In this document: piece after piece, positions 1 through 60,628 of the stretch
Numbering within the stretch: the first letter of the stretch is position 1
Layout of the letters: each line of letters begins with the position of its first letter
Source: Tubiluchus corallicola
Taxonomy: Eukaryota > Animalia > Priapulida
Direction: 5' to 3'
DNA: 64,000 bases
Assembly (NCBI GenBank): GCA_030141605.1
Contig: JAQGDQ010000296.1
Coordinates: 1 to 64,000 of the forward strand
The notes under the pieces: generated by a model
Seen by the model: the letters and a program-made list of their open reading frames with translations, nothing else
The model's database searches: none
What the model was told of the DNA's origin: nothing
Made by a program: the position numbers and the translations under genes

Positions 1-926
1 CTAGATCGATGTGGAAAATCTGCTTTTTGCAATGTAAGAAGTAGATTTGAAGCACCCGTGTTCCTACTTTTTCTCGATTGTGTTTGGCAGGTAATGTTTG
101 TTTGTATCTTTTGATTTTATTGGAATCTAAACAAACTTTGATGGTACAAGCTCATGATTAATTGAATATTGAAATCAAACTTGTGAAAAAGTTGAAGCTC
201 ACCCTGGATTTGAATCGGGGAGTTCTGCTTACAAGGCCATAACCTCTAGACTACCTGTTCCATACCAATCAAGGCGGCCCAAAGTTCATCCCTTATAGCT
301 AGCCAATTCAGCTATAAGGTTCTTGACATTTGTCTTGCAGGAAAATGGTCATTATTTCAAATTTAGTCTGTGTCCAAACTTTTTTTGCATTTCCTCTTTT
401 TCAAGTTTGATTTCAAAATTTAATTAATTGTGGGTTCGTAGTGTATCATCATTATTCATTAATAGCAATATTGATATTATGACAATAAATAATTAAGCTT
501 TATTTGCAATTGCTATTTCTAAAACCAAGTTTTGTGTGAAACTAATTGAATCTTACTTTTACCATTTATTTTTCCTAGATATTCTCACAGTTTCCCTGCT
601 CATTTGAGTTTAACACACAGTTTCTCATTTTACTGTTTGAGCATGCATACGCTTCTCAATATGGTAAGTTACATTTTTCAAATCCCATAACATTTATATT
701 TTAAGCATTCCCTACTTGGATTATATAAATACATGGATTGTTATTTTTTATTGAATCTTAGTTGTTAAAAATTGTTGTGGTAATAATTTGCGTTCTCTGT
801 TTTCCTGGGTAGTATGTAATGGTACACAATATTCAGTATTGTGGAAAACATTTCAGGTACATTCCTGTGCAACGATGAAAATTCAAAAAAGAAGATTCAC
901 GTGAAAAGCAAAACAGTTTCTCTCTG
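1..926 (+). CDS. MTMR9: MTMR9-like coding exons 9 (partial, 1-90), 10 (579-663) and 11 (857-926), on the strand opposite exons 1-8
   Basis: LDRCGKSAFCNVRSRFEAPVFLLFLDCVWQ | IFSQFPCSFEFNTQFLILLFEHAYASQYG | TFLCNDENSKKKIHVKSKTVSLW. Donors gtaatg, gtaagt, gtattt and acceptors cctag, ttcag are canonical and the phases agree. This is the C-terminal (SET-interacting) part of the myotubularin domain. Confidence 0.92.
140..450 (-). mobile_element. Intronic repeat with ~50-bp inverted termini, a tRNA-like (A/B-box) segment and a hairpin
   Basis: 140-190 is an imperfect reverse complement of ~396-447 (ctttttc(ac)aagtttgatttcaa..tt.aattaat). Hairpin ccttatagct-agccaattc-agctataagg at 291-320. Minus strand shows TAGTCTAGAGG...GATTCAAATCC, resembling Pol III A and B boxes. 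Confidence 0.5.
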
Positions 927-1187
927 GTATTTATTACTATGCTGTTTTCATTGCATCTAAGAGTCAAAGTACAATTACAATTGCACATAAAATTCATTCT
1001 GCTGTTTATAGGACCGTTTTGTTCCACGCCATTCTTTGAACACCAGAAAGAACTTGTAGTTATGAGGCAGTCACGTTGTCATATAAGAACAAAGGAAACC
1101 TATGAATGTAACTTTTTTTTCTAAAAATGATATATATCAAATATTTTAAGCTAAAACTTTATATATATAGTTTAATAAAATCATTAC

Positions 1188-1287
1188 CAGACTCTGAGGT
1201 GCTACTGACGGCCAAATAACAGAATTGTTTGGCTCATACATAGGGTTAAGATAACCTTGCAATACCTCTGGTCTGTTAACCCAAGAC
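1188..1287 (-). CDS. MTMR9: MTMR9-like coding exon 12 on the minus strand
   Basis: Minus strand reads tacag|G TCT TGG GTT AAC...AGT CTG|gtaatg = SWVNRPEVLQGYLNPMYEPNNSVIWPSVAPQSL. Its first base completes the TG(G) Trp codon left by plus-strand exon 11. Confidence 0.92.
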
Positions 1288-1922
1288 CTGTAATTAAACA
1301 AAGTACGAGGCTTGAAGATCACTGAAGATACAATGTCATCCATACTATGCGTACTTAGTCTGGCTTTCACTATCAAAAATATAAGCGAAAATCTACTGTC
1401 ACTATACTATCATGGGTAAGAAAAAAACTGACACTACTTTTGGCACAAGGGCCAGAAAATATTTGCCTCATAGTTCCGTAGGGCACTTCTGGCAGAAGAA
1501 CACAAATTTTACTTAAAATACTTTTTCTCAAATTTAAATGGAAATTTAGATGTTTTCCTCTTTTAATTGGCTAATATGATAAACCTGTTTCACATTCTAA
1601 TATTCAACAAAACTGAAGTTTCAACGCAATTACTGAGGTAATAGTTATTCCGTACACATTATGCACACTGCAGTTTGTTTTTATATACCGTACTCCACAC
1701 TTCTACCAATATTAGCCAGTAAAGTACTACCTGCAGCCTGGAAGTGGTGGATTGTCTGTCCAGGTGTATGAATGCATTATTGAGGCCAATCTCACTCTTA
1801 TTACGAGTACGAGGCCTGGTATTATGAATATAAGATTGACTGATTTTTGCAGCAGCATTGTTAGGCGCTTCATGTAGTCACAACCTGTAGTACTAAAATT
1901 TCACTACACACAAATATCAATA

Positions 1923-2680
1923 CAGTACAAGACCGTTATAGCGAACATGGTTTATTGCGTACACACTGCTAATATGAACTCGCAAATCATTCATTTAACT
2001 AGTGCAATAACTTTGAATACAACACAGTCGCTTATTGGGTACTGTGAACTTTTGTCAGGCCCCAATGCCTGTATTACTATGCTTGAAGTATTACTCCTAC
2101 TACTGTTTTATAAGCTTTTATTGCGTACTTTACCGTTACTCGTGGTTTGCACAAATTTACAGTTCAAATTAATTAATTTCGACAACCTGTCTCCGATGAT
2201 AAAATTGTTATGCAAAGTTGTGAATAAGGGTCAAGTGTGAAAGGTCATTTTGTCTACTGCATAAAAGCAATCAGTTTTATGTTACGAGCCATTCGCTGGC
2301 TAGCAAACAGCTAGTTTTATAATTTGCAATGTGAGGTCAGCAACATATACATACATCAGCAGAGCAATCATATCATTGAACAAAGAAAAGAGAACGGGGC
2401 TTTCTCTTTCTGATAAATATGAAGTTTTACATGAAAAAAATCATGGTAAAAAGCCCCAAGTAGTCTATAAAGATAGAAATTTGAAGTACTGTTAGTACAA
2501 TGACACGTGATCGACAAAAAATAATTGATACTTTTGAAAGTCAATGCAATGCTTCATCAGCAAAAAAATGAATAAGATTATCTAAAACTCGATCAAGCAT
2601 TGCTAAGTGGTTCATACAAGCAAGGCATGACGAGTTGCCATTTATGGTGAGATTTTGATTGCGAAAGTGAATATTAAATC
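1923..2680 (+). mobile_element. Decayed Tigger/pogo-type DNA transposon, 5' end
   Basis: TA|CAGTACAAGACCGTTATAGCGAAC terminal-repeat-like start. Disrupted CENP-B-type HTH peptides at ~2385-2670: KRTGLSLSDKYEVL, STVSTMTRDRQKI, KK*IRLSK, LDQALLKWFIQARHDELP, GEILIAKV. Confidence 0.75.
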
Positions 2681-2980
2681 AGTTTTTATTTTATTTTTCA
2701 ACTTCTGCTGCAAAGTAGTTGATAACATCTTATCAAAATACTTTACTAGTTTACATCCTCTATGAAGCTACACCCGTACCTTAATTTATATGACAATTAT
2801 TAATACATGCTTGTCCATTCATAGTTGTATGCTTTAGCTGTGTATATTTAAAGAGTACCTCAGTTATAGAGTGTTATTTTTGAATCCCTAACTGGTTTGC
2901 TATAATGATTTTACATTGTAGTTAACTTTAAAGTGTTATCTTGCTGACAAGTTGCTATCTTCCTATAACAGTACTACCTT

Positions 2981-3101
2981 TAGAAGTTAAGCAACATTGG
3001 GTGTAAGAAGTGCTTAGATGGATGAGATGTTTTGCAGAATCTAGAAGTTAAGCAACATTAGGTGTAAGAAGTGCTTAGATGGATGAGATGTTTTGCAGAA
3101 T
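2981..3101 (+). repeat. 61-bp-period tandem duplication (2 copies, one internal mismatch)
   Basis: tagaagttaagcaacatt(g/a)ggtgtaagaagtgcttagatggatgagatgttttgcagaat starts at 2981 and again at 3042. Confidence 0.95.
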
Positions 3102-3542
3102 GATTACTTTTAAGTTCTGTCCCAGCAAAGTGATATATAAAATGAGCCAAACAACCAAAGTGAGCATAGAAGTGCCAAAGAACAGTATCAGATTCTAGCA
3201 TAAAGTAACAAAATTTTATCATGTTAAGCATCACAGTTTTAAATCACATAACTCCATATATACTATTGTACTATGGGTGAGTTGGGTGATTGTGTAACAA
3301 AACTGAAACAATGTAGCACTCAATATCAATGAAAATACTAATACACTTGACATTTTAGAAGTCCAAATTATTGTAAGGCTCTGTTCGTAAAAAGCCGGCC
3401 TTTTACTGCAGTAGCGGCAACAACCCTCCTACACTCCGTACAACTATCTCTTTTAGATGCTGTCATCCCTGGGACACAAAACTTTGGGCAAAGCTCCAAT
3501 AATAACAGATTAACCGATTATCAGGCAGTTTAAGATGCTCAC

Positions 3543-6500
3543 CCATGAACTGTTCTACAATCAGGATCTAGAATAACTTGTGACAGTGACGTAACTTGAA
3601 GTGTAATATCTCTGCCTTCATTTCCATGGACCAAAACTGAGGCACCTAAGATAGACAACATGATGTCATAAACTTAATCCTGAAAAAGACTTAATTCTAG
3701 GCTAAATAGACCTAGAATGTCTACATTATTGAGATTAAAAATGTCTGTGTCTATCATTCCAAGATACATTACATCAATGCATGTAAGTAGCTTCACATAA
3801 AAAAGTTATATTCTTATGCGCAGAATTTTCAAAATCATATTTTATGGCATGCTTAATTTAGAACCAGAATTCTGTTACATCCTTGCAAATTTCTTGTCGA
3901 TGCAAAATTCAATACAAATGTAAATAAACTATGCAGGTATGAAAAACTCAGAAAATAAAGCCATTTTTCACAAAACAGATTTAATGCAATGGCAAGAGAA
4001 ATGGTAATTTGTGTTACCGTAGCAATGATTACGGCTACTGCTCAGTTATTCTCGTGGCTAGCCAGTACACATTAAATAATAATCACACATAAAGGGAAAC
4101 CAACCAAAAACACAGACTAAATGGCTCTGGTGGAAATAGGCTCTTAATCTGGAAGTTTAAAGAAACTGTTACCATGAACGGGAATTGTATCTAGATTGGC
4201 TACAAAAATTATTAAAACAATCAAGTCTCTGCTAATATTACTGTAAAGTTAATATGGTGACTCATACTTCTATACCAGTAAAACTGTACCCATTGGTTAA
4301 AAGGTTCAGTCGGCTAATTGGGTCAAAAAACTTCGGTCCCAAAGTGAGTCTGTTAAGCGGTGCCTACTATTCTGTAATCCCGAAAATTTGTTAAAAAAAC
4401 ACATCCTCTGAGGAAACTTGCTTTGCTGATATCAAACATTACAATAGGAAGCACCTTCTTTATCAACGCATTGTGCTGTAAGACAGGCAGCTGTCAATAC
4501 ATCTTTAACATAACCCAACCAGTTGCAGGATTCCAGTCTTGATAACCATTTGTCTGAACTTGATCTTGTGTCACTACATGCTGAAATTAGGTGAAATTAA
4601 ATGCAATTAAAAAATTAAATCAGTAATTCACACAAAAATAAAATAAGGTATTTTTTAAAAAATGACTAATTTTAAAGTATACTTATCCAATGTCAAATAA
4701 AAATACGAGCATGTTCTTACAACTGATATATTGTGACATCAAACACAGAAAATCTGCTTGTTTGTCATTTAAAGTTAATAATGACAACTGCTAAACATAT
4801 AAGCAAGTTTACAAACCTTCAACAAGTTTGCATAAAGATTCTTGAAAAAATGTATGCCTCTCCACCGATCGATGTACTCTCTTCCATTGTGAATAGTTTG
4901 CTTCAGGTTCATATCCACCACCTGGCAAGTTATTGATTAACATTATTGGTTAGATATCATAACAACAATTGAAAGTTTAACCTGGTTTGTCCACTATCTT
5001 TTAGTGTTTCTCGAGCAATTATCTTTTTTATATCTTTAGCACACTGCAAGTGAGAAACCAACATCCAATCGCAAGGTCTACACGACAGTTTATATCATCA
5101 TAAGACACTGTTCCAAGCCGGATTAATTAACAAGGATACCTCTCTAAGACGAGCCAAATGGGATGCTAATGGAAAAAAATGTGCTGGTGCAAGATGAAAT
5201 TAGGCTCCCCAGGTATGTAATTGGGTATGTACCCCCTTACTGAACCAGCATACTTACGTAGCTTGAATAACTTATGTAAGTAAGATAAGTCACTACATTA
5301 CCTACAAAAATTATATTTTATGTTAATTTTACTTTTTCTCAAGCAAAGTTTTGAATGAATCATCAAAGTTAATTACTGTTCAGTTTCAGTTTGCTAAAAA
5401 TTAGCTCAATTTGCCTCAGCTTAATCACGAGCCCCAACTGCACCCCTGGCGGTGATGCATGGTTCTACCCTCTCAATCGGCCTGAGTCACTGAACCAACA
5501 CAGGTGTCTCAGCCACAAACGTCTGTAACAAATGATCGAGTCATTCGCTATAAGCAATATGAAAATTATTTCAGTGACCATAATGCTATACAAACAGCAG
5601 AAAACATTCATTCAACAAAAACCTAAGTATTCTTGTGATACTAATGTAGTATAATACTTACTGTTATTACTGCCACCCCACTAAAGCTGTATTACAACTT
5701 CTGCAAACTAATGAAAGTAGAAATACATGTTTGCAGTCTAACAATTTGTAATGTTACACAGAACACAGAAAAACGTATATAATCCACAATTTTACCTTTG
5801 TTTTTTGACATTTGTGCAACATTCACAGTTCGAGTGTCAATAATATAGCCACGTTTTCCTGGTCTCAATGCTGCATTCAGCAATTTCTCATCTTCCCGGC
5901 ATCGTCTTCCAGATGGTCCAACTAATGGCTGACTACTACGCATAATTGCTGCCTAAAATATACAGTTAAAAACATAGAAGTATTATAACAGTTTAGCCAG
6001 CTATAATTAAAATAGCAAAACGTGTAAGTACAAAGTGCAACAAAAAATTGTGAATTCAGTTACTCTTTTATTGATATTTAGTATACCCCATCAGATGCAT
6101 GATAATAACAAAGAACAGGAAATCGTCCTTTTTCTCGAAAACCTGCTGATGCCACAAGTACTTCATCCGAGATTGACTTTGGAACGATAACAGACTCCGG
6201 GTAAGACTGACAAACCTAGAATATACCAAAAAATAGGTCATAAATAAAAATCCTTCAGAATAACTTGTACTTAAATTGCATCAAGAAAGAAGATGAAAGA
6301 CAGAATTACAGAGCATACTTAAAAAAGTATGTACTTCACCCTTCACTTCATTAATAAAACAACCTGTTCTGTTGTATCAAAGGAATTTTCTCAACTTTAT
6401 GAATCTTGTGGTACATGAAAAATGTATGTTTCTGATGAATGGAATTGATTATGATATTACAAATTTACTCTCAAATTACATTACAGGCTACTTTGAAAAA

Positions 6501-9413
6501 AAATCATGAAAATTCATGCTTACTTGCAGATAATCAAATGTAATTGACCATAAGACATCATGCTAATGGTCGAGAAATGCACGTATGGCATATTTTGAGG
6601 CACAAAGTTTATTCTTATTTACTCTGGTTGCGTGGATCTGCCCCAGCAAACAGGTTTATTAATAAACATGCAATTTTTTTCTGAATAAGCACGTACATAG
6701 CATTACTTGGTGTTCTGCCTAATTGCCCATTGCCTATTTTAGATCTAATAGGCTTCTTCTGAAGTTTAGTATAAATACGTTCCCCAACTTGAATTAGGTT
6801 GAGTTTGTGTAGTAGTCTACCCAGTACTATGTTTTCTCCCGGAAGCTCTTTATTGAGGATATCCTGTGGCCCGCATAACTAGATCTATTGTTATGTTAAG
6901 TAATCTTCTAAACATTGAATTTATTTAATTTAAACATGTAATTCTAGTCGATGTATTTGTCATGTCACATGTACTAATTTGATCTTATTAAAACACAACT
7001 AGGCCGTTTATTATCAGTATTTAGTAAGCCAAAACTATTGTTATGGTAATGTAACTATCTACCTAATCAGCTCATTGGCAGTATCATTATGTCCTTCTGC
7101 TTAATAATTATGCATATATTTTATTTTTTAATCACCTGTTCTTGGTTTTTCTTCAGCCAAACAGTACAACTATGTAGAAAGATGCAATATTAACTATTTT
7201 ACATTTATATGAGTTTGGAACAAAGATTGTATTTTCGAACTCGGAGCAAAATTTAGTGCCAGTCTTTTCGAAATAAATTTCAAAAATATTATTCAATAAT
7301 ATTGCATAATAATAATAATAATATTTCAAAAATTTCCCGACACTAACTATTATTCTTGTAAATTTATGATGTGGACTGTTTAATATTTACTGATTTACTG
7401 TTTTAATGCAGCATTATACCCAACTGTTGGGATACATTTCTGTTATGTCATATGTGTCATATAATGTCATTAAACTTACAAGAACAAAATGGCAACCACA
7501 AGAACAGCTGTATTTTACATCTACCTCAAAATTTTTGTTAACATGACTTATTCTCCAGCTGTCTGCATGGCTAAGCAATCTGGTAAATTCGGTTTCTGCC
7601 TGAAAGGCTTGCCACCCATCTTCCATAATATCAAACATGCGTGGTCGAAAATAAAATGGATACCACAGATTGACATCCTCTGCAAAAATTAGCTACATAA
7701 AGGCTTAGCATTTAATTTTATTGACTGGTCATTAGCTTAAGTTTCACTTTTGTACTGATAACTATTTCAAATAAAAAATCGTAAATAAAATTCTGGTACA
7801 TTTAGCATTTGATGTGATACTTAATGCATTAAAAATTTCAAATTTTCAATGGTGTACCACGATGAACAAACTGCAGATGTTCAGTGGTGTACCAATGCCC
7901 AAAGAGAATGAATGAAAAAATATTGAAGAACATCTTTTCATCTACACAATGACCAACAAATACACAAGAAAGTTTTTAAACAGAAATGTTCTGCTTCAAA
8001 TCAAATTTGCAATAAGCAAAGCAAGTTTCAGTAGTGGATGCCACACATGAAGAGGAATAAGAAATCATCTAATAGTATATAAAATGTACAATGCCGTCAG
8101 TCTTATTGCCCAGTCCTCCATGTCATAGGTAACAACAATAAAATTATAGTTATGTAGTGCAGTTGTATTTGAGCAGAACTGACACCAATAAAAAGTCATT
8201 CTTGCACAGGTGATTCTCAATAGCTCAGTTCAATTCAAAAAGCAAACAATTATTACGGGAAGTAAAATACTGTGCACTCTAAGTGTAAAAAGGAAATAAT
8301 TCACCAAACCATCAGCAATCAAACAAATGTAACAAGTGCAATTAAAATACAAATAAATTTGCAACAGCATTTTGTTAATTTCGTTGTTGAGTAAAACGCA
8401 TAAACACAAGTTTTAGAAAAATGTGACAGTGGCAACATTGCTTTAATTCGCTGGTCTAACCTTGACAAAACTTTACAAAATAGGCAACTGTACATTGTTA
8501 CTCTTATTCTTACCTATGCTCGACAAAGCTTCAATAGATTCAGCTAAATTCAGTGCTTCCTCTTGACTGGGAATATCAAGCCTAATGATTTGAAGATTCT
8601 TGCACTTAACAATGATGGTTCCACGATCACCTTCCAAACGCTTCTCCAAACCATCTACATTTCTGTGTAGCAACTGGATAAAAAAATACGTTAGTTATTA
8701 CACCAAATGTGCTAAAATAAAGCAGTTTGCAGAGTCATATCTCTCATTTAATCATATGAAACTTTTTTGCAATAAAAGCTTGTTATGATAATATAAACCT
8801 TTTGCACAAATTTGATTCCAGTTCTGTGTAATGTAGGAATATTGGTTTTTAAAGCCCATTTCTATAAATTTTCGGTCACAACTCTTAAGGTAATTAGTGT
8901 GTTTTAGTTTCAGAATCAAATAATACTTGTATTTATTCACACCTGTTATATAACAATAATTTTTATATTAAATGAAGACTGGTAAAAAGTTTGGTCAAAT
9001 AATAGGCATTTAATGCCATTATGCCAATTTTACATTTAAGGAATACTACTTTTCATATTATAAGCACAAAAGACAAAATCAAAGTTCAATTCAGAAAGTG
9101 AATTAGCATTTGTAACAGAAAACTGATTCTATTATAAACAGATAGTTTAAAAAGTTTCTATAAGCATATTTTTTAAGTAAAAATACTAACCTGTTCTGTA
9201 CCATAAGCAAGCTACAAAAATAGTTTATATCAAATTTAAACTTAATTTAAATAATAAAATAATTACCCATAATTCTTCACTATTATCCTTTCTAGAAGAG
9301 AGAATCATGTGATGACCAGTAATACAAAGTGTTCCTTCAACAGGTGCTTGAAATGGTCTGTGTAAGGTGACTTCGTTTATTACAGGTGTTTTTATCAACT
9401 CAGCAAACTCCAT
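3543..9413 (-). CDS. MTMR9: Myotubularin-related protein 9-like pseudophosphatase, coding exons 1-8 (9413-9267, 8673-8514, 7679-7525, 6215-6087, 5952-5796, 4921-4817, 4580-4455, 3645-3543)
   Basis: Hand-spliced GT-AG exons with matching phases give MEFAELIKTP...GTLCITGHHMILSSR...YPFYFRP...WRISHVN...CQSYP...GRFPVLCYYH...MRSSQPLVG...GGGYEPEANYSQW...VHGNEGRDITLQVTSLSQVILDPDCRTVHG, which follows vertebrate MTMR9 as recalled. Confidence 0.93.
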
Positions 9414-11096
9414 GATTTCTAGTTAGCTGATACTGCAAAATATTAAAGATATTCAAAATGTCTACTCACAGTTGTATAAAGCATAAAGCATAAAGCAGAT
9501 ATTTTCTCATAACAAAACTATTTGGAATAAGGCTACCTGGTTTAAGTGTTAGGGTCTAGTTTAGAACTTTTTCTTTTTTTGATAAAAAGGCGCAATGATG
9601 GCACACAAACCAAACACAAAAGTTAGTTTACAACAGAGATGCCACAGTAATCTGCAAAAACTTCTATTGAAGCTAGTGCAACCCTACAATTAAATTATGG
9701 TTAAAAATGGGAAAAATAATCTAAGGTGCTGCTTGCATAGTGCAATAACAGTTCAACTGTTATTTAACCAAATTAATAGTTTTGGTTAAATACTAGAAGC
9801 TAAATACTTAATAATAATAATGCATAATGTTACTGGCTGATCATTAATAGGTCATCTTTCGAAAATGACAAACTGAATACTGTACATAGAGCAAACAACA
9901 GTCTCAATAAACAGACTCATACCTATAAACATATAGACACACATGCACGCACGCACGCACACAGACATGCCTATATACATATAAAACATTTGTACACATT
10001 ATATAAACAAACTATGCCAATAAACAACCCTATACAATGCCTGCCACAATTCGATTAATTATAATCGCATGACAAGTAGCACTTAACATACTGTCACTAC
10101 CAGACTCAGACTGCACAACTAATATTATTTATGACAGGCAAATTTACATAATCAAACAAGTCGGTAATCCCGATATTGTTTAATGTAGAAAGGTCTACAC
10201 AAGAGACGTTATACAATGCAAGCGTATATAAATTATCAAAACATTATGAAGTTGCTTGAGCTGTAATATTTACAATCACAAATATGCTTTTAAATTTATA
10301 GACAAGCTGTATTAAATATTGCAAATATTCTTTTGTGAATTTCTTAACAGAATTAGGCATTGTGCAAGCCAGGATTCATAATAAAAGGCAGGGCCCACTT
10401 ACTGTTACAGTAAATGGTATTGTTGGGATTGAAATGGCAGATGAAACAGCCTAGTAGGAATGTCCCAGAATCACTCCTCATCAATTTACTGACTAAGCTC
10501 AACATTGCTTAATTTCACTGTTGGTTAATAACAGTTTTCTGAGACATAAAAACATGATCAAGATAATTCTGAATATAATCTCTTGCAAAATTTATGAGAA
10601 ATTTGCACTATATGAAATTTCTCAAAATTTATGAGAGACACACTAAGTACATAGTGTGTCAGTGTCATAATAACACAGTATGTACTTAAAAAGGAATAAT
10701 AATAATATTAAAAATACTTACTCTTATTAAAAATAATATAGTATTATTATGTAGTAATATAATATAGTTTCATAAAATACTGCAATCACAATGTATGAGA
10801 GAGTATATCAGTATGCAAGAGTATGGTCCAAATACTTGTCCTTGATACTGTGCACAAACATTTGTTTTGCATAAATGGCCCAAAACTTTAAAGTCACTAT
10901 ATGATAATCGCATACTATAGTGCAAGATCAATCGTGATTTGGTATCAGGTGCCTTAAGTGACAAAGTAACGTGCCAGTGATTAGTTTCCACTTTTATTCA
11001 TAATGAATAATGATATAATTTTCCTATAATACTGACTGCATTGCTAGTATATTAAGCTTTAAAGTACGAAAAGTAAAAAAAGAATATCATAGTAGT

Positions 11097-14000
11097 ATGA
11101 AAAATAAAACTGAAAATACCAAATATGAACCACCTGATGGTGGGTGGGGATGGGTTGTCGCCGTGGCAGCTAGCATCAATCTTGGACTCACATGGGGACT
11201 ACAGAAAAGTTACGGAATTTTCATGATCGACATAATGGATTTAGTAGGAACCAATGCAAAACTAACAGGTGGAGCAGGTGGTTTGTGCTCTGCTATGGGT
11301 GCAGTTTTAGGTAAGGAGTTTGCTAATTAATTAAGATTTTGCCATAGCAAAATCTTATTGTTTCTCATACAGTTTTATTGAGTTATTTATTTATTTATTT
11401 ATTATTCTTATTTACTCTCTGCCACTTTAATGCTTAATAACTAGTAGGTCTTGCAAGCCAGGGTCACCAAACTCACAGGGTTGGTAGCTCTGAGCTTGGA
11501 CGTACCACAACATAGCATATGCTGACCACTGGTCAAGGGGAAGGGCAGTGGGCAATGGTCAGTTTTTCCATTATGATTCAACTCCTCCTAGGGCTTTTGT
11601 TTTTTCTAAATTTTTTACTTCACAAGTATTTGTGTACTGTGGGGCAGGTGTGCACCTGGGGTTTTAAAAAGCTGATAAGCTTTAAATGCCTGCGTGAGGG
11701 GCCAAAATGCAATATTTGGGGTCCCCAATTGGTGACCTTTTACATGTTGAGGGCTAGGGACACAAAACTCACAGGATACACTCTCTGGTCAAAGTTATCT
11801 ATGTATACATGTGACTGGTGTTGCCGGGTCAAAGGTCATGGAGCAGGCAGGTCTTCATTTTTTTATGATCCATCTGCTTCCATAGTTTTTGAGCTCTAGG
11901 GCCACAATATTTGATGTGTTGCTAGGTGGGGTCGTGGCCTTGCACATCACAAAATATGGGACATGCACGTATGGGAAAATTTTCCGCTAGGGGGCAAAAA
12001 CCGAAAAATGGGGGTCGGGAACAGAAATGCATCGAGTGTCTATGCATAGTACCATGTAGCATATCAAATGAAAGGTGTCGACGAGGTGAGTCGAATGGCA
12101 TAGGTTACAATGAGAATAGTTAACCCGCCAGCCTGCTAGGGGGCAAAAACCGAAAAATGGGGGTCGGGAACAGAAATGCATCGAGTGTCTATAAATAGTA
12201 CCATGTAGCATATCAAATGAAAGGTCTCGATGAGGCGAGTCTAATGGCATAGGTCACAATGAGACTAGTTTATCCGCGAGCCTGCTAGGCGGCAAAAACC
12301 GAAAAATGGGGGTTGAGAACAGAAATGCATCGAGTGTTTATGAATAGGACACATAGCATATCAAATGAAAAGTCCCGATGAGGTGAATGGAATGGTATAG
12401 GTTACAGTGTAAATCATTAACCCGTGACCCAGTTGTAGGCAAAATAGGGGTCGAGGAGACAAATGCCTTCCAGGGTTTACCAAAAGCAGGTTGTTGTGTA
12501 TCAAATAAAAGGCCCCAATGAGACAAACTGAATGATATAAGTTATGCCAAGATTGTTGACCTTTGACCTGTAGCTGATGGGCCGAACAGTTAAATGCTGA
12601 GGTTTCATTGTGAAATGCACTTTCCATGTATTCAAGCAATTCAATAAAAGAAAATAAGCACTTTCAAAAAAGGAGGTTGTCTCTTCATTTCCAAGGCTGA
12701 ATTTTACAACTATTGTTTGCAAAATCTTCAGTTTCTAACCATGTCAGAAACATTGTCAACTAGTTATTATTATTTATTCTCTGCCACTTTAACGCATAAT
12801 TACTCGCAAGCCTTGCAAGCTAGGATCACCAAATTCATAGGGTTGGTAGCCCTGGGCGGGGCACGTACAATTGTATAGCAACCGCTGACCACTGGTCAAG
12901 GGGGAAGAGTTGTAGGCATTGGTCAGTCTTTCCTTTAGCTGGCAACTCCTCCTAGGGCTTTCGTTTTTTTTTCACAAGTATTTGGGTACTGTGGGGCAGG
13001 TGTGCACCTAGGGTTTTAAAAAGCTGACAAGCTTTAAACGCCTGAGTGAGGGGCCAAAATGCAAAATTTGGGGTCCCCCAAGTGACCTTCTACACGCCGA
13101 GTGGTCGGGTCTTCATTTATTTTTCTTTAGGATCCATCTGCTCCCATAGTTTTTGAGCCAGGGCAACAATATTTGGTATATGGTTAGGTGGGGCAAGTTG
13201 TTGGATATTGCAAAATATGGGTGACTTGGAGAGGGGAAAATATCCACTAGGAGGCAAAAACCAAAAAATGGGGGTTGGGAACACAAACGCATCAAGTGTC
13301 TTAGAATAGTACCACTTTCAAAAAAGGCTGTTGTCTCTTCATTTTTAAGGCTGAATTTTACAACTATTGTCTAATGCCAATTTTATGTTTCATTTGTAAA
13401 TTCATCATTTTCCATTAATTTAATAGTAAAGAAGAAACATTGATCTGAATAACTGGTCATGCTCGTATGTCAGAACTTTAGATAATGTTTTGCTCAAAAG
13501 ATCTTAAGCAACAAAATTAATGCCTATAATATGAATGAAATAATGCTTATTATGACATAACAGTCCAGCATATGGAAAACATGAAATAAATTGATTTTGT
13601 AAAAAATTGCAGGTTTGGATTTTTCTAAACGCAGGCAGCAAATATGAATACAAATCCACATAAAGCTGAATTGAGAAATCAAACTGTTTTTGTGATTTTT
13701 TTGCAAAAAAAAACAAAGATGGAAATGAAAATGTTTTAAAAATGTTTCAGGGATCTTTTGCAGCAATGCGTAATCAAAAAGATTATTTTCATTCTTAGGA
13801 CCTGTTGTTGCAGTGTTGATGAGGAAATTTGGAATAAGATGGGTGTGCATGGCAGGAGGCTTGCTGGGTGGAACAGGATTTGCTTGCGGATATTTTGCAT
13901 TTACATTGCCAATGATATACTTAAGTTACAGTATTATGTACGGTATGTAGAAGCGACACCTGAAATTTGTTATTTTCCAATGTTTACCAAAATTGAATTA

Positions 14001-15521
14001 AAAGACTCTACTCATATCTCAGTTTCTCTTCATAAATAACAGTATTATTATCAAATTCTCAAACAAGTTATGAGTAATTGTCTTTTTTCACAGGTGCTGC
14101 ATCATCACTCATTTCTATGTGTTCTTTTGGTGTGATAAATGTCTACTTTCGAAAGCGGCACGGATTGGCACAAGGGATAACCATGGCAGGCGTAGGAATT
14201 TCAGCAGTTGTCAGTTCTCAGGTTATCAATGTTCTTGTAGATGTATATACATATCGTGGTGCATTTCTCATAACAGGCGCTATAGTCTTACATTCAATAC
14301 CTTGTGCTTTGACGTTCATGCCCTTGATGAAAGTCAGTTCAAAGAAAACGAAAACAATACGTAGAACTGAATCATTTGACAAAAAAGGTAAGCAATCTAA
14401 AGATACCAGTCTGGCTGTTATGGGAAGCTCCAACGTGGACCAGTGGAAAGAAATACAAAAAGGGGTATTAGATGTGGAACACTCATCGTCACACAGTCAT
14501 GAGAAAAGCCACTTTCACTGGAAAATATTCAAAGATGTCCGGTTTTGGTTCTTTGCTCTCAGTATGTGTCTCATGGACATTAGCTATCTGAATGCAACCG
14601 TTTACCTGCCATTTAAGTCAGTAGAACTAAAACCTGACGGAGTGAATGAAGCCACAATGGTCTCAATTTTTAGCATAATGGATGCAGTTGGTCAAATAAC
14701 ATTTGGTCTACTATGGGATTGTGGAAGATTTCGGCACATATATGAACGAATGATAGGATACATACTGATTTCAATAACAGCAGGTTGTGCTACTATAACC
14801 TTTTCTGCAATACACAACTACAATGTGTTGTATTTGTGGGTTGGTATTGCAGGATTATTGTTTGGTGCAACACTATCTCCATGTTTCATTATGATAAAGA
14901 ACATGGTTGGAGAAGAAAAGTACACTGACTTCCTATCAGCAGATCTCCTAATGCAGACACCGGGTCTCTTTCTTGGACCAGTTTTCATAGGTATGTCGCT
15001 ATAATAACTGCACAGATCACATAAAATATAAATATACGGAATTGCTAATTTACCGAAGACGGAAATTTTAATAGGGAAATTTGTAAAATACATTGAAAAA
15101 TTTTATTAATTAACAACTAATAGAATCAATGTTTATTATTTTGCATTTTTTTCTCCAATCTTCATTTGCCTGACATGAATTTTATTTGCTGTTATCATAA
15201 TGTAAAACTGAAACATTATTACAGCGATGACAAATTGCAACAGCTATTATCATACTGTTATGAATTAAGATTTGTTAATTTCTATTTGCAGGTTTTATCT
15301 ACGACAATTTGGAAAATACGGGGCCAGTATTTACCACGCTGGGACTTTTTCTGATTGTATCAGGAATCATTGCTATTGCTTTGCCTGTTATTACCAAAAT
15401 TTGGTATGACATAGACAACATAGGCATACCAAAAAAAGAGGAAGTTAAAGCACTTGAACATTCTGATAGTGGTATCCATGATGAAGATCATCTTTATGAT
15501 AATAAAATTACAAAGTTTTAG
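11097..15521 (+). CDS. SLC16/monocarboxylate-transporter-family MFS protein, ~494 aa, 4 exons (11097-11310, 13799-13942, 14094-14990, 15292-15521)
   Basis: N-terminal PPDGGWGWVV family signature, YFRKRHGLAQGI loop motif, many hydrophobic helices, polar central loop, GPVFIGFIYD; all three introns are GT-AG and phase 1. Confidence 0.92.
11328..13372 (+). mobile_element. Two tandem copies of a Helentron-associated (HINE/DINE-like) non-autonomous element in SLC16 intron 1
   Basis: 5' hairpin aagattttgc-cata-gcaaaatctt, then a (TTAT)n microsatellite, a core and internal tandem repeats. The 3' end repeats gcaaaatctt, then hairpin gtttct...agaaac and ctagtt (~12719-12765). A second, internally deleted copy of the same core follows at ~12765-13372. 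Confidence 0.7.
11986..12430 (+). repeat. 149-bp tandem repeat, 3 copies, followed by a degenerate fourth
   Basis: gctagg(g/c)ggcaaaaaccgaaaaatggggg... starts at 11986, 12135 and 12284. Confidence 0.95.
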
Positions 15522-16892
15522 AATTTTAGAAATTTTACAATGGATTGTTGATCAGATGACTAAAAATGACTAGAATGACTAGTATGAATAAAACTAAGGT
15601 TAAATTGTTATCAGAGCAGAACGTGGCGTTGCAGCATGTGTGTGCCTGCCTAGTCACCCAGGTGGTCACATTTTTTTAGATTTTCTGAAACATGCAAAAA
15701 GGATGTGAAAAAAACATTAAAAAAGCAATTGCATGCTCAATTGAGAAGTATTTGTAGCTTGGAATGCTTTCTAATTTTGTTTATTCAGTTTCAAATAGTT
15801 TCAAGCAAAATTTCCTCAACAGCTTCATAAATTTAGACATTCTGAATTATTGGCAATATTCAGCAAATGCAATTTGAAAGAAATGCTTATAAAGTTATAC
15901 TATGATGATTTCTGATAATCATTATATTGTTCAATTATGATTACACAACGATGATAACAACAAATTATGTAGTCACAAGTTATGTGCATAATTTCAGATA
16001 GCTGAGTGTATGTATACATGAACTATTATGATATTCCTATGTTTAGGCAAAAATTCAGTATATCAATTAGATTTCGAAAGCATGTTAAACATGCCCTTAC
16101 AGGATATACGTAATGTACAAAAATTTAGGCATTTATTGAAATAAGAAGCTGTAACCAAAAGGCTAAAGGCAGAAAAGCTGCTATGTCTTCCCTCTCCAAA
16201 GGTAGCACATTTATCAATGTAACAGTAAGTGACTAGTACACATACATGATTTCTGTATAAAAAATCACAAGGTCTAAAATGTAAATAACCACAATATATG
16301 CACAAAAATTACATAAACTGAAGAGAAATCCATAACAATAAGAATAACTGGGCCAGCTCTCCTTTTCACGACATTGGAAACATGGTCTGTATGCCCCACA
16401 GCTATCATGAAACTCATTTCAGAATTCTAAACATTTACTCAAAAGCTACAAGCACTGCCGGCATGTCTGTCACAGTTGACCAATTACTGTTTATGGCAAC
16501 TGCCAAATAAAACAAGCATTACAATATATGTGTCACCACACCTTGAAATAATTTTCAAACAGTGTGGTGAATGTTGAAAATACTGTGATTAAAGCTTAGT
16601 GCAGGTTTGTGCAGCGATTTGTATATAACAGGCAAAAGTAAACAAAACTGGCAGAGAGTAGCAAATCTCTTGTGCTCAACTAGCATAAACAGTGAATTAC
16701 ATCTAATCATTATGTGTACGTGTGCTAAGGGACTAAAGCAGTAACAAGTACAATTGCTTAAATCCACTGATAACAGACAAAAAATGAAAATAACGACTTT
16801 GAATAACGAAAATGTTATAAAATGTAGCTGTACATAATTATATTACACTGGACTATTAAATAATGGTCGTAATGCTGTTAAACTGAACTATA

Positions 16893-18046
16893 ATGTGTTA
16901 TCTAAACTACGCTCTCGTTATAACATACATTGTGTGCTTTGTGACATACACAGAAAGTTGTGGCTGGTGCTCAACTTGCCCGGGAGCAAGACGAACTCAC
17001 AGAGGATTCAATCAGAGGACTAATCAATTCACAGGGGGGTTTGGAGCTCCAAGAATAGATGTCATCCCTGTTGACCCCTCAGTTATTGGAGGAACACCAG
17101 AAACTGACACTTGCCGTTATGATCCACTAGGATTTTTTGGTAGTCAGTCAAGGCGTGTCCAAGAACAACTCAAGATATTCTTATCATTTGATTTAAATCG
17201 CAATGGAGCTGTTACTATAAATGAACTGAGTCAAGCCTTTAAGTTTATGCTGGGACCTGAAATATATAGTGTTACATTGGATAAATGTGGTTTAGTAGAA
17301 GTTATGAGAGAAACTGACCAAAATGGTATGTTTCTTTTTACTATTTTCTTAGAAGCACTAAATTTATTTATGCTAAAAGAAAACTTGGCCTTTAACCTCT
17401 TAAAGACAAACACACCACTGATATTACATTACGTTTTTTTACTTCACTGAACAATCTTAGTGACAAAGATTTGAGTTTAGTTCCTGTAAAATATGAAATA
17501 TTACCTTAACAAACTACACGCAAAAATGCAAGAAAATATTAAAAAACAATTTATATATTAGGAGATGGCACCATCACATGTGATGAGTTCAAATCAGCAA
17601 GATTTTGGGCACCAAGTCAGAAGCGTTTGTGCTTTCCTGGAGAGCGAACAGATGATGTACGTCGCAGCCAGCTGCCATTCCGTGGCAACGCTGGCAACAT
17701 AAATACAAATACCCGAAGACGACAACGACGACGACGAAGAGAACAGTTATTACGAAATGCCACTAAAAGACCTCCACTGACAAACAACAGGAGAAGCAAC
17801 GTTCGAGAAATTCAACTGGAAATGGAAAAATTTTATCAAAACACCCAAAATGTTAAAGATGCTATAATACCTCAATACGGACGGAATAGAGTAAATACAT
17901 ATCAGAGAGAAACTCAACAACCACTGAGAAACCTTAACCCTCAAAGTAACTATGGACCAAATTCTGTTCCACTGGACTTGAGAAGAGTAATTCAAACTTC
18001 TCCAGGACAAGGTCAAAACTTTTTTTACAGATTACTGCAAAATTGA
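16893..18046 (+). CDS. Predicted secreted protein with two EF-hands and an Arg/Asn/Gln-rich tail, ~305 aa, 2 exons (16893-17325, 17562-18046)
   Basis: Signal-peptide-like MCYLNYALVITYIVCFVTYTES. EF loops DLNRNGAVTINEL and DQNG|DGTITCDEF; the second is completed across a phase-1 GT-AG intron. TATAAAA at ~16817 and AATAAA at ~18064. Confidence 0.82.
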
Positions 18047-32361: not shown

Positions 32362-35300
32362 TCAGTCTTCTGGATCTTTGCATTGTGTACAATTCTGCAT
32401 ATCCCTGCTGTAATCTTCAACTTGTACAGTGCTCTCAAACACATTGTAATTTGCTTTTAATTGCCTTTGAGCATCTTTTAATACTTCCCTGGGATCAGCT
32501 AACGGATCTGCAGAAATATTTTAAATATATTTTAACATCGGCTTACAAATACATAATCATCGACTAATGTAAAAAAGTTTTATTATGAATATTATAAATA
32601 ATGCTGTAATCATAATTTCTAACAAAGTTAACCTACATAATATAATCTGCATTCTCCAATGAAGTGAAAATTAGTATCAGACTTAATGTATACATACCAA
32701 TAGCCAAATGTGCTGCCAAGGCAACTTTATCCATGGTTAAAGCCCATATTCGTAAGTTGTGAACTTCTATGACACCAGGAACACCAAAAAGTGTCTTCTT
32801 GACATCATTAAAATTTATTCCTTTTGGGGCACCTGCATTAAACAAAGCTTCTATCAGTGGGTGGCATAGACAGAGCTTGAGCCCAGGGCGCCACTTGAGT
32901 TTGACACAACTCCCCTCCCAATGAAAATCCTTATGTAAGAAGATTTTATATTTGAAAAATTTAACGGCGTTGCCTCGTATATGCAATAAGAGCGGAGATG
33001 ATAAACTGAATAAACAAGAGCTACAGTAGGACCTCGAATATTTCCACAGTCTGTTTCTGAGTAGTAAAAAATCTCAGAATAATCGAGAAAGTCCAGATAA
33101 TCAGACTTACCTAGTTTTGCTTTTCGAGGGCTTACCATATCGCGAATTAACTTTGAATCTCAAACTATTTTATTCAACTTTAGGGGCTTCAAGAAGTTCT
33201 ATATTGTTTTTAATCTGAGGTTTTGCTATTATTGTGTGAGCTAATTGCAGCTTCGCACCACTATTCTACGTGCTACATTAAAAGACGATTTTTGCATTGT
33301 CTAACAGGGCAGATGGGCAATTTTATTTCAGGCAAAGGCAGGGATCTGCTATATCACTGAAATCACATTTTCTGCAAAGTTTACATTGAAGAAACAATAA
33401 CTGAATTGATGGTTAATTGGCAGATCTTTGCCTGGCCATATTCATCCTAATGTGGTTAACTGATGCAGATTTTTTTCAAGATTTAAGATACAAGATTGTT
33501 TATTTCGTATCAACACAGATACAACTGGTACATTAAAAAATACAAAAATTCCAATCATTCAAAAGTTAACAAGAAGCAAAATACTCAATAAGAAGCAAAT
33601 TTTGAAATGCACTTAATTAAATACTTAGTTAGGTGATTTGAGGTGTTACAGGGCATTAAGGAAGCCAAACTTGTAAAAATGCCCTTACTGTGAAGTTTCA
33701 AGTAATATGTAAATTTCAAAAAATGAAAGGAGAGAATGTTAATATTACCATGCATTCCCTCTATTTGATCAGGAAGATCGTTAAAGTTGCAAATAAGATT
33801 AACATACAGATGACATAACATGTAGCACTTGACTATAATACTACAGACATTCACACATACAGCTTGAATAGCTAGCCTCTTACCTTCCATGAGGACATTA
33901 ATAGTATCACGCAGTATAGCTAGAGTAGTTATTAGCACCAATACAGAGAAGAGGAATGTACAGATTGGATCAGCTAGTTTGTATTCTGGCTGCAAATAAG
34001 AAAAAGAGAAAGCTAAGTACATACACCTACTACATGGCGAGCTAGGTATAGTTAGAAAAAAAAACAGAACATCGATGGTGCTGCAGGTCCTTTCACTTTT
34101 ATGTTTGACACCTTGATGATCTGACATTTAATATAAGATTATTCTTTTTCATCAAATTAGGTTTCACAAATTCTCATAAACACTAAAGAGCACTAATTTC
34201 CTTGTGGTGCCTCCTGGTCAAAACTGGTCGAACAGTTTTCATGATGAATTTCACATAGCAAGCATTTTTGGCGATATTCGGCAATTTTTACCTTCGTCTC
34301 ACATGATTGAATGCCATCACCCAAAAGTTCTCACCTATCACTTAGCACCTATACTTGACATTTTGCAGGACAGAACCTACTTTTATAAAACCATAGTTGC
34401 AATTGTTTCCTCCCTCCTTAGGGATCGAGGAGTGGATAAAATATTTTTATCACAGCAGGGCAGTCAGTAGGTGACAGGTCACTGCATTCCTTGCACTGAG
34501 CTGATTCAGATTCTCCCACTGTACCTGCAATCCAGGGATCACCCCCTAGAGGGGGCCTAGAGGGGGGTGATCATTGCAAGCTATCACCTAAAAGGTGTCA
34601 GCTATTGCTTAACATCTACACTTGACATTTCGCAGGACACTTGCCTTTATACCACTAAGGTTCCAAATATTTGAACCCGGGGAGCCTCCCTGGAGAATGT
34701 ATTGTAAATAGCTGACCGGCCACTCTAATTCCTCAGATTGTGATGGCTGAAACTTGCCTGTTATATTCATCGTCCTGGATACACTGCAAGACTTGCCATC
34801 ACGTAACATCTAATCACTTGACATTTTGTTTCTGCCTTTATCATGTATAATTTGCTTTTTAATTGCAATTGTTTAAATCCTGGATCCGACCTCCCTCCCT
34901 AACCTGGGGAGGGGTAAAATATTTTTGTCAATGTTGTATTCTTCCACTATATTCAACCTAGATTCTCTCCACTCTGGCAATGCAGGCTGTCGTGCAAAAT
35001 TGTCAGCTACCATCTAAGTTCTAGTTCCTTGCTTTGAGCTGACCTTGGATCTTCTCACTATACCCACTATTCCTGTGCAGCTATTGAGGCTCCCTACTTG
35101 TTTACCCAAATTTTGAATGTGTCCTCAAAATGACTTTTTTGACTTTGACAATCACTTTGTCCCAGAGGTAACGCATACCACAAATCTCAAGACTGCACTA
35201 AATGGTTCAGGTGTGACTGACTGAGTCAAACTGTGAATGGACTAGGGAAAGTCAGGGTACCTAAAAACTGGGCAAGGTGCGACTCTTGCTTTCTATGATA

Positions 35301-38300
35301 CTGCATGCCTTGCACAGGGTATGATTTTCAACAGGCACTGGGAAACAAGAGGATGATTATGGTGTGTCCTGGTGACTAAAGAAAAATAATGTCGATCTTG
35401 GTCAGTAAATAGATGGGTCACTAGTGGGAAAACTCCCTCTCATCCTCCAGTTTCATCAGCCATACTGCATGTGCTCTTAACTTTGTGGAGAGAATGCAGC
35501 TGAGATAGGCTAACCTCTGCCATTCATTGTATCATTTTGGAGATAATTTTTGATCTTAGATTATTGGGACTAAGACAGCTTCCTGTCTTGCCACAATCAC
35601 CTACACTAAGTAGGCATGGGCCACGAGTGTTGGATACTGGCTTGCAGAGTTCACAGTTATATAATAAAAAAAAACGTCATAGGTTTTATGAAAAATAACA
35701 AAAATGGCTTCCACAAAAATCTCACAAAGAAAACTAGCTAACAAGGCATAAAAAATTTCATGTAAAATGACATGATTTTTCACAAACTGTCTTTGCATAT
35801 CATAAAAATTTCCTTATTTGTTTCATCTTTTGCTCTTAATACCATGATTCCTAAAGCGTGCCCCAGAAAGAACACAACTGTTCAGTAATCGATAATAAAC
35901 GATAGTGACAAATAGTAAGATAAGAAACATATTAAAATTGTTTCACTATACTCAGCATATGATGTACTAATTGCAACTGAATTCAAAATACCCAAGGCAC
36001 ACTTAACTTATTTATTTTAACTTATTCCCACTTTTGATGTACGTGTAACTTTCATTAAAACAGTTTGTCATAGCGCATTAATAACTATTTAAAACTAATA
36101 TGTATAGCAATTGCAAATTTCGTTTCACTATAAAGAATAGAAAAAGGCTTAACTGGCAAACATATTGCACATAAAATTACACACAAAAACAGTGGATAAA
36201 TAAAATGCAAAATAACTTCATAAGAATTCTATAATTATTAAGCGTAATAATATCAATTTTAACAATTAGCAGTTTAACAATTAACAATAACAATTTACTC
36301 AATAAATACCTTAAAATAAATAACGAGAGCAGCCACAAGCACTCCTAAACTTTGCACAAAGTCTCCGACTACATGGATGAAAGCAGCCCGTACATTGATG
36401 TTAGGATCTCGTCTTGTTTCTTCTATTCTGCTGCTTTTCTGCATGCTAAATGAAACAGCCACTGTTTCCCCACCACCACCTCCGTGACTATGTCCATGAC
36501 TATGAGTATGCAAAACACTACCCATGCTGAAACAGAGCAATTTGTGCAATGGAAATATTTTATGGAAGGGATGTTACCGATAAAAATGTGTACGGTAACA
36601 CTGTGTTATCATTATTGTATCAATATTATTCTACGAATACTGTGTTATCATATCGATTTTGTTGCTGCCTATCGCTACCCGTCATAAAAATGACTTTCAA
36701 GACATTTGTTTTCTATTTATGCAGAATAATTTTTTAACTTGTACTCCTAATGGCTTACAGGTAAAGCATTAAGTTACATTAAGGCACTTTGCACATCAAG
36801 ATCAGAGTTGTGACTGACTGTCTAGGTTAGTAATGATCACACAAAATATAACACCTTGCCACATTAAAAACTTCTGCAAGGACATACAGCAGTCAACCAA
36901 AAATGAACCAAAAGATTCTGTTAAATAAAATTTCATTAATGATCGGTTTATGATAACTGCACTGCGATGTTCATACGTCATATTACTACTGCATATGTGC
37001 AATGCTCTCTGTTGGCTGCAAAGCTGTTAAGATGTAATTTACTACTATGAATAGAGTTCTAATTTCATACTGTTACACTTGTATCACCGGGAAAACCAAC
37101 TGACTACAATTGGCAGTTTCCAAAGATCCAAAAGATGTAGTTTTGAATACATGCAGCAGATGTGGCCAAGCAAAGCTGAGAAATTGTGTGTAGCAGAAAC
37201 CATTGCACAGGTTACTCATTTGTGCAAAACCAACAAGGTGAGCAATCACTCAACCAATCATAATCGGACAAAACTTCACCGCATTGAGGTGAGTACAGTA
37301 AGCCCTACAAATCAAGGTAAACCAAGAGTACGACCTCATAATTACAGACTAAACCAGGGCTATGATCCGATTATCAACCAATCAGTGGAAGAGCTGCACG
37401 AATGTGTGTGCATGCACTGCTTGCAAGAAGCATATCAACCCGATTCCTAGTGAACCAATAAAAAAACCAAGTGAACATTGTCACAAAATAAATGAAAAGC
37501 AAAAATTGCAATCTCAGATATAAACAAACTTGTGAAAGCTGATCTAACACAAATCTCAACACCAAGTGAGAAGTTTTTATTAAAACTTTATAGAAAAATT
37601 ATACGACATTATGCAGTATGTGTTGTGTACTATGCGTTATTATCGGTAAGTGTCGCTATATAGTTAAAGTAATACTGAAAATTTTTAATATTTTGTAAGT
37701 GAAAGAGTATTTCAGTATTTTTGGAACCGTTGGAATTCCTTACATAATTTCGTGGTTGATGCTAACTAGTCAGAATGTTAGTTCAATACTTCCATGATCT
37801 AATTTTAAAATTTCATTTTCTTAAAACTAAATCTTATTTGAGGAGGAATGTAATGTTCACATGTCAAATCTATACTGCACATGTGCAATAGTCTTTTTCA
37901 TGTTGGCTGTCAAGCTGTTAAGATATAATTTATTACTCTGAACAAAGTTCTATTTTTATACAATTACAACTGTGCCAAATGGAATATTATACTAATTACT
38001 TACACAATATTCACTCCAACTCCAACACCGGCTGTAATTAGCATAACTTTAGCATCAATTTCGTAGTCATTAGAAATTATTCGTTCTACAGCTAAGTAAA
38101 CTAGAACACCAGTTATAACCCAAATCATTAATACTGATACTAATGCTCCAACCACCTCTGAAAAGTAAAACATATTTTAGTCAGTCTCATAACAACTACA
38201 AATCACATGTACATTAATAACAAATTAACATACTCCAAACCAAAATCAAAATTCATACATAAAACTTTCCAAATCTGTTATTATGCATACGCAAGTATAA

Positions 38301-60490: not shown

Positions 60491-60628
60491 ACCTGTTTGT
60501 CAAGCGGATCCAGGAGGGAGCATCCCTCACATTTTTACCAAACTTGGGTTCTCACTCGCACTGGTAAGTGATTCTCAGAATATGACAGTTCATTAAAAAA
60601 ATTTTCCCAAAATTTTGCGATTAAAGAG

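What the first reader, a model, noticed from the sequence alone, without database searches (positions are those of the whole stretch)
1..9413. MTMR9 exons are intact but split across both strands and out of order
Seen in the sequence: E1-E8 lie on minus (9413 to 3543) and the next exons E9-E11 on plus (<1-90, 579-663, 857-926). E12 is on minus again (1287-1188), physically between the two blocks. No exon appears twice, none has a stop or frameshift, and every visible GT/AG is canonical. The E11(+)/E12(-) junction rebuilds a split Trp codon (TG|G) in the conserved SLWSWVN motif. There are no N gaps. Inference: one inversion cannot give this order. It needs an E9-E12 inversion with E12 re-inverted, or excision and inverted reinsertion of E9-E11. 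If fixed and functional, a full-length mRNA would need intragenic trans-splicing between opposite-strand transcripts (precedent: Drosophila mod(mdg4)) or somatic DNA rearrangement. Mis-assembly or a heterozygous broken allele are simpler and at least as likely.
Basis: partly seen in the sequence, partly recalled or inferred. Interest (0 to 1): 0.85.

Follow-up and report, generated by a model that had tools for sequence, protein, structure and literature searches.

The report
Scrambled MTMR9 gene: likely assembly chimera
The MTMR9 exons of this worm do lie out of order on both strands in the assembled sequence, but public DNA data of the species place exons 8 and 9 in normal order and leave the assembly at both odd joints, so this is likely an amplification or assembly chimera of an ordinary gene and not trans-splicing.

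Summary
Twelve intact MTMR9 exons lie on minus (E1-E8, E12) and plus (E9-E11), with canonical splice sites and no stops. The trans-splicing reading is not supported. In run X1, one 1,761-nt contig (depth 169) reads E8, then 459 nt absent from the window, then window 1-426 in sense, so E8 and E9 are collinear. X1 and X2 (one sample) leave the window at all four edges (979, 983, 3471, 3480). X4 and X3, a second sample and study, leave it at 979 with the same flanking letters as X1. No listed contig crosses either joint, and X1 depth leaves no room for a hidden one. The joints carry a 10-nt exact overlap and a 5-nt overlap inside a 21/26 imperfect inverted repeat, the signature of template switching. 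A close relative has an intact 566-aa ORF on a 3,083-nt contig; the nearest named relative is Priapulus caudatus. Best reading: a chimeric molecule built into the assembly (0.82). A real rare broken allele is 0.15 and fixed trans-splicing 0.02. The E11-E12 link is inferred, not bridged.

The parts
9267..9413 (-). MTMR9 coding exon 1 (ATG at 9413)
8514..8673 (-). MTMR9 exon 2
7525..7679 (-). MTMR9 exon 3
6087..6215 (-). MTMR9 exon 4
5796..5952 (-). MTMR9 exon 5
   Evidence: Pfam PF06602
4817..4921 (-). MTMR9 exon 6
4455..4580 (-). MTMR9 exon 7
3543..3645 (-). MTMR9 exon 8; holds the degenerate phosphatase loop (Gly where active myotubularins have Cys); ends in phase 2
3471..3480 (.). Joint 1: 10-nt exact overlap. 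In the contigs the E8-side DNA leaves here towards E9 and the E12-side DNA is entered from other sequence. The window joins the two directly and skips the E9-E11 block (at least about 1.6 kb).
   Evidence: X1 and X2 contigs end their match at 3471 and 3480; chance of at least 10 nt about 2e-5
979..3480 (-). Block C: distal intron 11, exon 12 and the start of intron 12; in X1 it continues beyond 979 into 5,655 nt that do not match the laid stretch
   Evidence: records 3 and 4
1188..1287 (-). MTMR9 exon 12
979..983 (.). Joint 2 (strand switch): 5-nt exact overlap; with the bases that follow, 21 of 26 columns match the sequence that follows 983 in X1, i.e. an imperfect inverted repeat in the collinear allele
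1..983 (+). Block B: E9 (part), E10, E11 and the first 57 nt of intron 11; in X1 preceded by 459 nt that connect it, in sense, to E8
   Evidence: records 1 and 2
857..926 (+). MTMR9 exon 11 (ends TG, phase 2)
579..663 (+). MTMR9 exon 10
1..90 (+). MTMR9 exon 9, 3' part (start lies outside the window)

Best explanation
The species has an MTMR9 gene with E8 and E9 in normal order, and the scrambled order in the window is likely a chimeric DNA molecule, made by two template switches, that was built into the assembly. Shown: the native order runs E1-E8, then 459 nt, then E9-E10 (one X1 contig). E11 and E12 each run on into sequence that is not in the window, and E12 continues into different downstream DNA. 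Inferred: these loose ends join, giving E11, an intron of at least about 2.4 kb, E12 and the terminal exon(s), spliced in cis. Inferred mechanism, read along the window's plus strand: a polymerase copying the sense strand past E11 switched at an imperfect inverted repeat (979-983) onto the opposite strand and copied E12 and intron 11 backwards. It then jumped at a 10-nt direct match (3471-3480) over the E9-E11 block to E8. Whole-genome amplification of a small animal is the likeliest setting, but the library method is not known to me.
For: table 8: X1 record 1 (1,761 nt, depth 169.4) = window 4346 to 3471 (876 nt, 0 differences), 459 nt not on the laid stretch, then window 1 to 426 (0 differences). 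X1 records leave the window at 983 (50 nt loose), 3480 (164 nt loose) and 979 (5,655 nt loose). X2 has the same four edges. X3 (other sample and study) and X4 break at 979 with the same 30 flanking letters as X1. At 97% likeness the joints table is empty for 4 of 4 runs. X1 laid 11 records (8 listed), and the depth in the two joint bins (184.1, 195.4) equals the sum of the flanking contigs alone (184.09, 195.47), so no unlisted X1 contig bridges a joint. The MTMR9 contigs have depth 169-184, like unrelated contigs of the run (about 150-200), which argues that most copies in that sample are collinear. Overlaps of 10 and 5 nt have chance about 2e-5 and 8e-3, and 21 of 26 columns match at the strand switch. 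MDA chimeras are 85% inverted, mostly under 10 kb apart, and primed at 2-21 nt of complementarity (PMC1855051, passages). They cause false inversions of mean 1,493 bp in HiFi data (10.64898/2026.06.11.730069, passages). An intact 566-aa ORF exists in a close relative (P0001).
Against: All four runs are assembled contigs, which drop rare variants, so a minority junction in the sample is not excluded. No contig bridges E11 to E12. The E8-E9 bridge rests on one contig of one run. The independent sample X3 tests only the 979 edge. X1, X2 and X4 are one sample and may be the source of the window. Direct switches under 10 kb are rare in MDA (11 of 475, PMC1855051), and one of the two joints is of that kind. 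Replication-based rearrangement in living cells leaves the same microhomology (recalled). The assembly and library method were not seen.
Confidence: 0.82

Rival explanations
1. The window is a real but private or low-frequency allele: a complex deletion-inversion, or a fold-back duplication, made in vivo by replication template switching (FoSTeS/MMBIR type). It would be a null allele, or would give an in-frame E8-to-E12 skip lacking 98 residues of the phosphatase-like domain, carried beside a normal allele.
For: Microhomology at both joints implies a physical molecule rather than a software mis-join (inference: assemblers need longer overlaps). There are no gaps in the window. The window may come from an individual not among X1-X4: it differs from both X1 and X2 at 3402. 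Contigs cannot show absence.
Against: Sample S1 carries the window's allele at 2209 and 2864 (X2) and 5585-5613 (X4) beside the alternative allele, as expected if it is the source or shares the haplotype. Yet its contigs run unbroken through all four edges at depth 169-184. A junction at half depth would be expected to break them (recalled behaviour of graph assemblers, not tested).
Confidence: 0.15
2. The scrambled order is fixed in the species, and a full-length mRNA is made by two trans-splicing steps between opposite-strand transcripts (mod(mdg4) or eri-6/7 type) or by somatic unscrambling.
For: All exons are intact with canonical splice sites and compatible phases. A relative has a full-length ORF. 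Precedents exist for broken genes mended by trans-splicing (PMC4667647, passages). A germline-scrambled, soma-collinear arrangement would also give collinear contigs.
Against: E8 and E9 are collinear in an X1 contig, and no listed contig of 4 runs (2 samples) has the window's joints. Intact exons are expected of a fresh chimera or a recent allele and need no selection. It would need two trans steps and an internal antisense promoter, for which nothing was seen. A search for MTMR9 with trans-splicing found 0 papers.
Confidence: 0.02

Closest known systems
MDA/whole-genome-amplification chimeras (Lasken and Stockwell 2007, PMC1855051; bioRxiv 10.64898/2026.06.11.730069; Pacasus, PMC6218980; passages read)
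   Same: Strand switch between segments under 10 kb apart, primed at short complementarity (5 nt exact, 21/26 imperfect); not seen in the contigs of other libraries; size like the reported false inversions (mean 1,493 bp).
   Different: Here there are two switches, and the second is a short-range direct jump with a 10-nt overlap, the rare class in MDA (11 of 475). Amplification of the source library is inferred, not known.
MTMR9 (myotubularin-related protein 9); nearest named relative Priapulus caudatus MTMR9-like (P0121, 75% identical to P0001)
   Same: PH-GRAM (PF21098) plus myotubularin domain (PF06602). Gly in place of the catalytic Cys, as in the Priapulus, Saccoglossus and Bufo records. 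All 12 exons align to P0121 in protein order.
   Different: Only the assembled exon order differs; nothing unusual in the protein.
Drosophila mod(mdg4) and C. elegans eri-6/eri-7 trans-splicing (PMC4667647, passages read)
   Same: Parts of one coding sequence annotated on opposite strands at one locus.
   Different: In those cases the split is in the organism's DNA and the joined RNA was shown. Here the DNA contigs show the normal order at E8-E9, and the layout would need two trans steps.

Membership tests
MTMR9 | PH-GRAM plus myotubularin phosphatase domain | tested here: met
   P0001 (94-96% identical to the window's exon blocks): PF21098 E=5.5e-10, PF06602 E=1.4e-132; window exons 5 and 9 hit PF06602
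MTMR9 | Best named relatives are MTMR9, not other myotubularins | tested here: met
   In the 120 listed of 980 hits for P0001, named records are MTMR9 or MTMR9-like apart from two unnamed or hypothetical ones. No tree was built.
MTMR9 | Degenerate catalytic loop (no Cys-X5-Arg; motif recalled) | tested here: met
   E8 has Gly at the Cys position and Ile at the Arg position; Gly also in P0121, P0123, P0035
Intragenic trans-spliced gene (mod(mdg4), eri-6/7) | Exons are non-collinear in the organism's genomic DNA | tested here: not met
   X1 contig joins E8 to E9/E10 in sense; no listed contig has the window's joints. The E11-E12 link was not bridged either way.
Intragenic trans-spliced gene (mod(mdg4), eri-6/7) | Separate pre-mRNAs from both strands and joined mRNA from the same genotype | not testable with these tools
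   No RNA holder was listed
Amplification (MDA-type) chimera | Inverted joint between segments under 10 kb apart with 2-21 nt complementarity | tested here: met
   Joint 979-983: 5 nt exact, 21/26 imperfect; partners about 2.7 kb apart in the inferred native order
Amplification (MDA-type) chimera | Joint absent or rare in other libraries of the species | tested here: met
   0 of 4 runs list a contig across either joint; contigs only, so rare reads are not seen
Amplification (MDA-type) chimera | Source library was whole-genome amplified and the joint rests on few reads | not testable with these tools
   Library records are not shown and no raw reads were offered

The most novel reading that the evidence does not exclude
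The germline MTMR9 locus of this priapulid is scrambled across both strands and is restored either by two opposite-strand trans-splicing steps or by somatic DNA unscrambling, with the collinear contigs coming from somatic DNA.
Probability: 0.02. Interest if true: 0.9.

Novelty: not a real feature. Interest (0 to 1): 0.06.

Why it matters
As biology it likely does not matter: an ordinary MTMR9 gene. As quality control it does. This assembly holds a gap-free, microhomology-joined rearrangement that public DNA contigs do not support, so other strand switches, inversions or lost exons reported from this genome should be checked against reads. If the 2% case were true, it would be gene unscrambling or double trans-splicing in a priapulid, which would be very surprising.

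Tried and rejected
No whole genome is held for this window, so the DNA left of position 1 and any second MTMR9 copy could not be read. No RNA holder was listed. Three of the four 30-letter loose ends (979, 983, 3480) were sought in the window with up to 3 mismatches: 0 matches each, so the missing link and the downstream DNA are not elsewhere in the 64 kb. Extended similarity was looked for at all four flanks: clear only after 983, not convincing at the other three. A single inversion between the inverted-repeat copies was rejected: it would continue from 3480 into the link and the downstream DNA, not into E8. A software mis-join at a long repeat was rejected: no repeat of that kind lies at either joint. 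The first lay at 85% likeness was crowded by repeats, so it was repeated at 97%. Scan look-ups: nothing near this place, 8 of 17 genome notes shown and none on scrambled exons, two word searches empty. A paper search for multi-level MDA chimeras returned one irrelevant record. The script stopped with an error after printing its main results. For MTMR9 function I saw only a search listing. Supplements of the papers were not read.

Full report
Observation. I read window 1-10,500 and translated it in six frames. A search with exon 5 found P0001, a 566-aa protein on a 3,083-nt Logan contig. All 12 donors are GT and all 10 visible acceptors AG. Phases agree, there is no stop, and identity to P0001 is 346 of 359 and 108 of 115. 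Residues 362-377 and 493-566 have no credible match in the window.

Identity of the gene. P0001 has PH-GRAM and myotubularin domains. Its nearest named relative is Priapulus caudatus MTMR9-like at 75%, ahead of hemichordate, amphioxus and vertebrate MTMR9 at 59-66% (120 listed of 980 hits). This agrees with an earlier, unreviewed scan note that the genome is likely a priapulid. The phosphatase loop in E8 has Gly and Ile at the positions of the catalytic Cys and Arg (motif recalled), as expected for the inactive MTMR9. P0001 is a relative, not this genome, so it shows only that a close relative makes a full-length ORF.

Test against sequencing runs. Six runs were listed; four hold the stretch or part of it, from 2 samples and 2 studies, and none is on record as RNA. 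I laid those four (X1-X4), all as contigs. In X1, record 1 (1,761 nt, depth 169.4) matches window 4346 down to 3471 with no difference, continues for 459 nt not on the laid stretch, and then matches window 1 to 426 on the plus strand with no difference. Read in the direction of transcription, that is E8, intron, E9, in normal order. If E9 is one exon, intron 8 is about 72 + 459 - 49 = 482 nt (arithmetic). The X1 contig with E10 and E11 leaves the window after 983. The contig covering 3072-3480 leaves it after 3480. The 7,717-nt contig with E12 leaves it at 979 and runs on for 5,655 nt. X2 shows the same four edges. X4 (same sample) and X3 (other sample and study) cover only the 979 edge and show the same 30 flanking letters as X1.

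Nothing supports the window's joints. At 97% likeness the joints table is empty for all four runs. X1 laid 11 records, of which 8 are listed. The mean depth in the two bins holding the joints (184.1 and 195.4) is reproduced by the flanking contigs alone (184.09 and 195.47), so no unlisted X1 contig crosses them. The MTMR9 contigs have the same depth (169-184) as unrelated contigs of the run (about 150-200). Sample S1 shows the window's allele at three polymorphic places (2209 and 2864 in X2, 5585-5613 in X4) and the other allele in X1. It may therefore be the source of the window and is not independent, but it still does not show the joints. Limits: contigs drop rare variants; the E8-E9 bridge is one contig; the link from E11 to E12 is not bridged, and its two loose ends are not found in the window, so that part of the native order is inferred from exon order.

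Anatomy of the joints. The segments overlap by 10 exact bases at 3471-3480 and by 5 at 979-983; by base composition the chance of overlaps this long is about 2e-5 and 8e-3. At the strand switch the similarity extends: the X1 sequence after 983 and the window sequence after 983 match at 21 of 26 columns including the 5-nt core. In the native allele this is an imperfect inverted repeat, one copy 57 nt after E11 and one about 210 nt after E12. The other three flanks show no convincing extension. Read on the plus strand, the window is: sense E9-E11, a switch to the opposite strand at the inverted repeat, antisense E12 and intron 11, a direct jump at the 10-nt match over the link, E11-E9 and the 459 nt (at least about 1.6 kb), then antisense E8-E1.

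Mechanism. Overlaps this short are unlikely to be joined by assembly software (inference), so a physical molecule probably carried them. Polymerase template switching explains both joints. In MDA, 85% of 475 chimeras were inverted, most joined segments under 10 kb apart, and priming used 2-21 nt of complementarity (PMC1855051, passages). MDA HiFi libraries gave thousands of false inversions of mean 1,493 bp and misassemblies (10.64898/2026.06.11.730069, passages). 12-50% of amplified long reads held palindromes in the data sets of PMC6218980 (passages). Against a pure MDA reading, direct switches under 10 kb were only 11 of 475, and I do not know the library method. Replication-based rearrangement in vivo leaves the same marks (recalled). 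I put an artefactual chimera at 0.82 and a real private or rare allele at 0.15. On such an allele E8 could splice in frame to E12 and lose 98 residues of the phosphatase-like domain.

Trans-splicing. mod(mdg4) and eri-6/7 are real precedents (PMC4667647, passages; listing), but they require the DNA itself to be non-collinear, and that test fails at E8-E9. Intact exons and splice sites need no selection if the rearrangement is a fresh chimera. One paper search for MTMR9 with trans-splicing found 0 papers. Only a germline-scrambled, soma-restored locus or a fixed split at intron 11 escapes the data; I give this 0.02.

Verdict. The pattern is real in the assembly, the gene is an ordinary MTMR9, and the scrambling is most likely an artefact. 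Interest 0.06. Four look-ups in the scan's notes showed no earlier report of this pattern (8 of 17 genome notes were shown).

Noticed in passing
window 4250-4370: Very high-copy short repeat in intron 7 (summed contig depth up to about 630,000 against about 175 single-copy in X1); one more copy at 46597-46640.
   Followed up: partly
window 145-440: Imperfect 47-nt inverted repeat (145-191 / 394-440) around a tRNA-like stretch on minus (by eye; ARAGORN finds no tRNA); 380-440 is high copy. Possibly a MITE or SINE in intron 9.
   Followed up: partly
window 2981-3101: 61-nt tandem duplication, 98% identical, in intron 11; also present in X1 and X2 contigs.
   Followed up: yes
window 4447-4454 and 3638-3645 (minus): The start of intron 7 (GTGCTTCC) resembles the start of exon 8 (GTGCCTCA), both reading Gly-Ala-Ser; could reflect intron origin by short duplication.
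   Followed up: no
window 11019-15004 (+): MFS transporter gene, head to head with MTMR9; the 308-codon frame at 14078 hits MFS_1. A first exon is likely near 11080-11310.
   Followed up: partly
window 32633-39261 (-): Zinc transporter (cation efflux) gene with its exons in normal order on one strand, so the scrambling is local.
   Followed up: partly
window 16887-18046 (+): EF-hand protein gene fragments (weak Pfam hits).
   Followed up: no
window 47953-49136, 58168-58608, 63229-63667: Broken retroelement pieces: reverse transcriptase at 47953 and RNase H-like at 63263; 48444 and 58168 look LINE-like by eye with no Pfam hit.
   Followed up: partly
window 60572-61436 (+): Two overlapping frames that look by eye like a broken family-B DNA polymerase of a Polinton-type element (recalled resemblance; no Pfam hit).
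   Followed up: no
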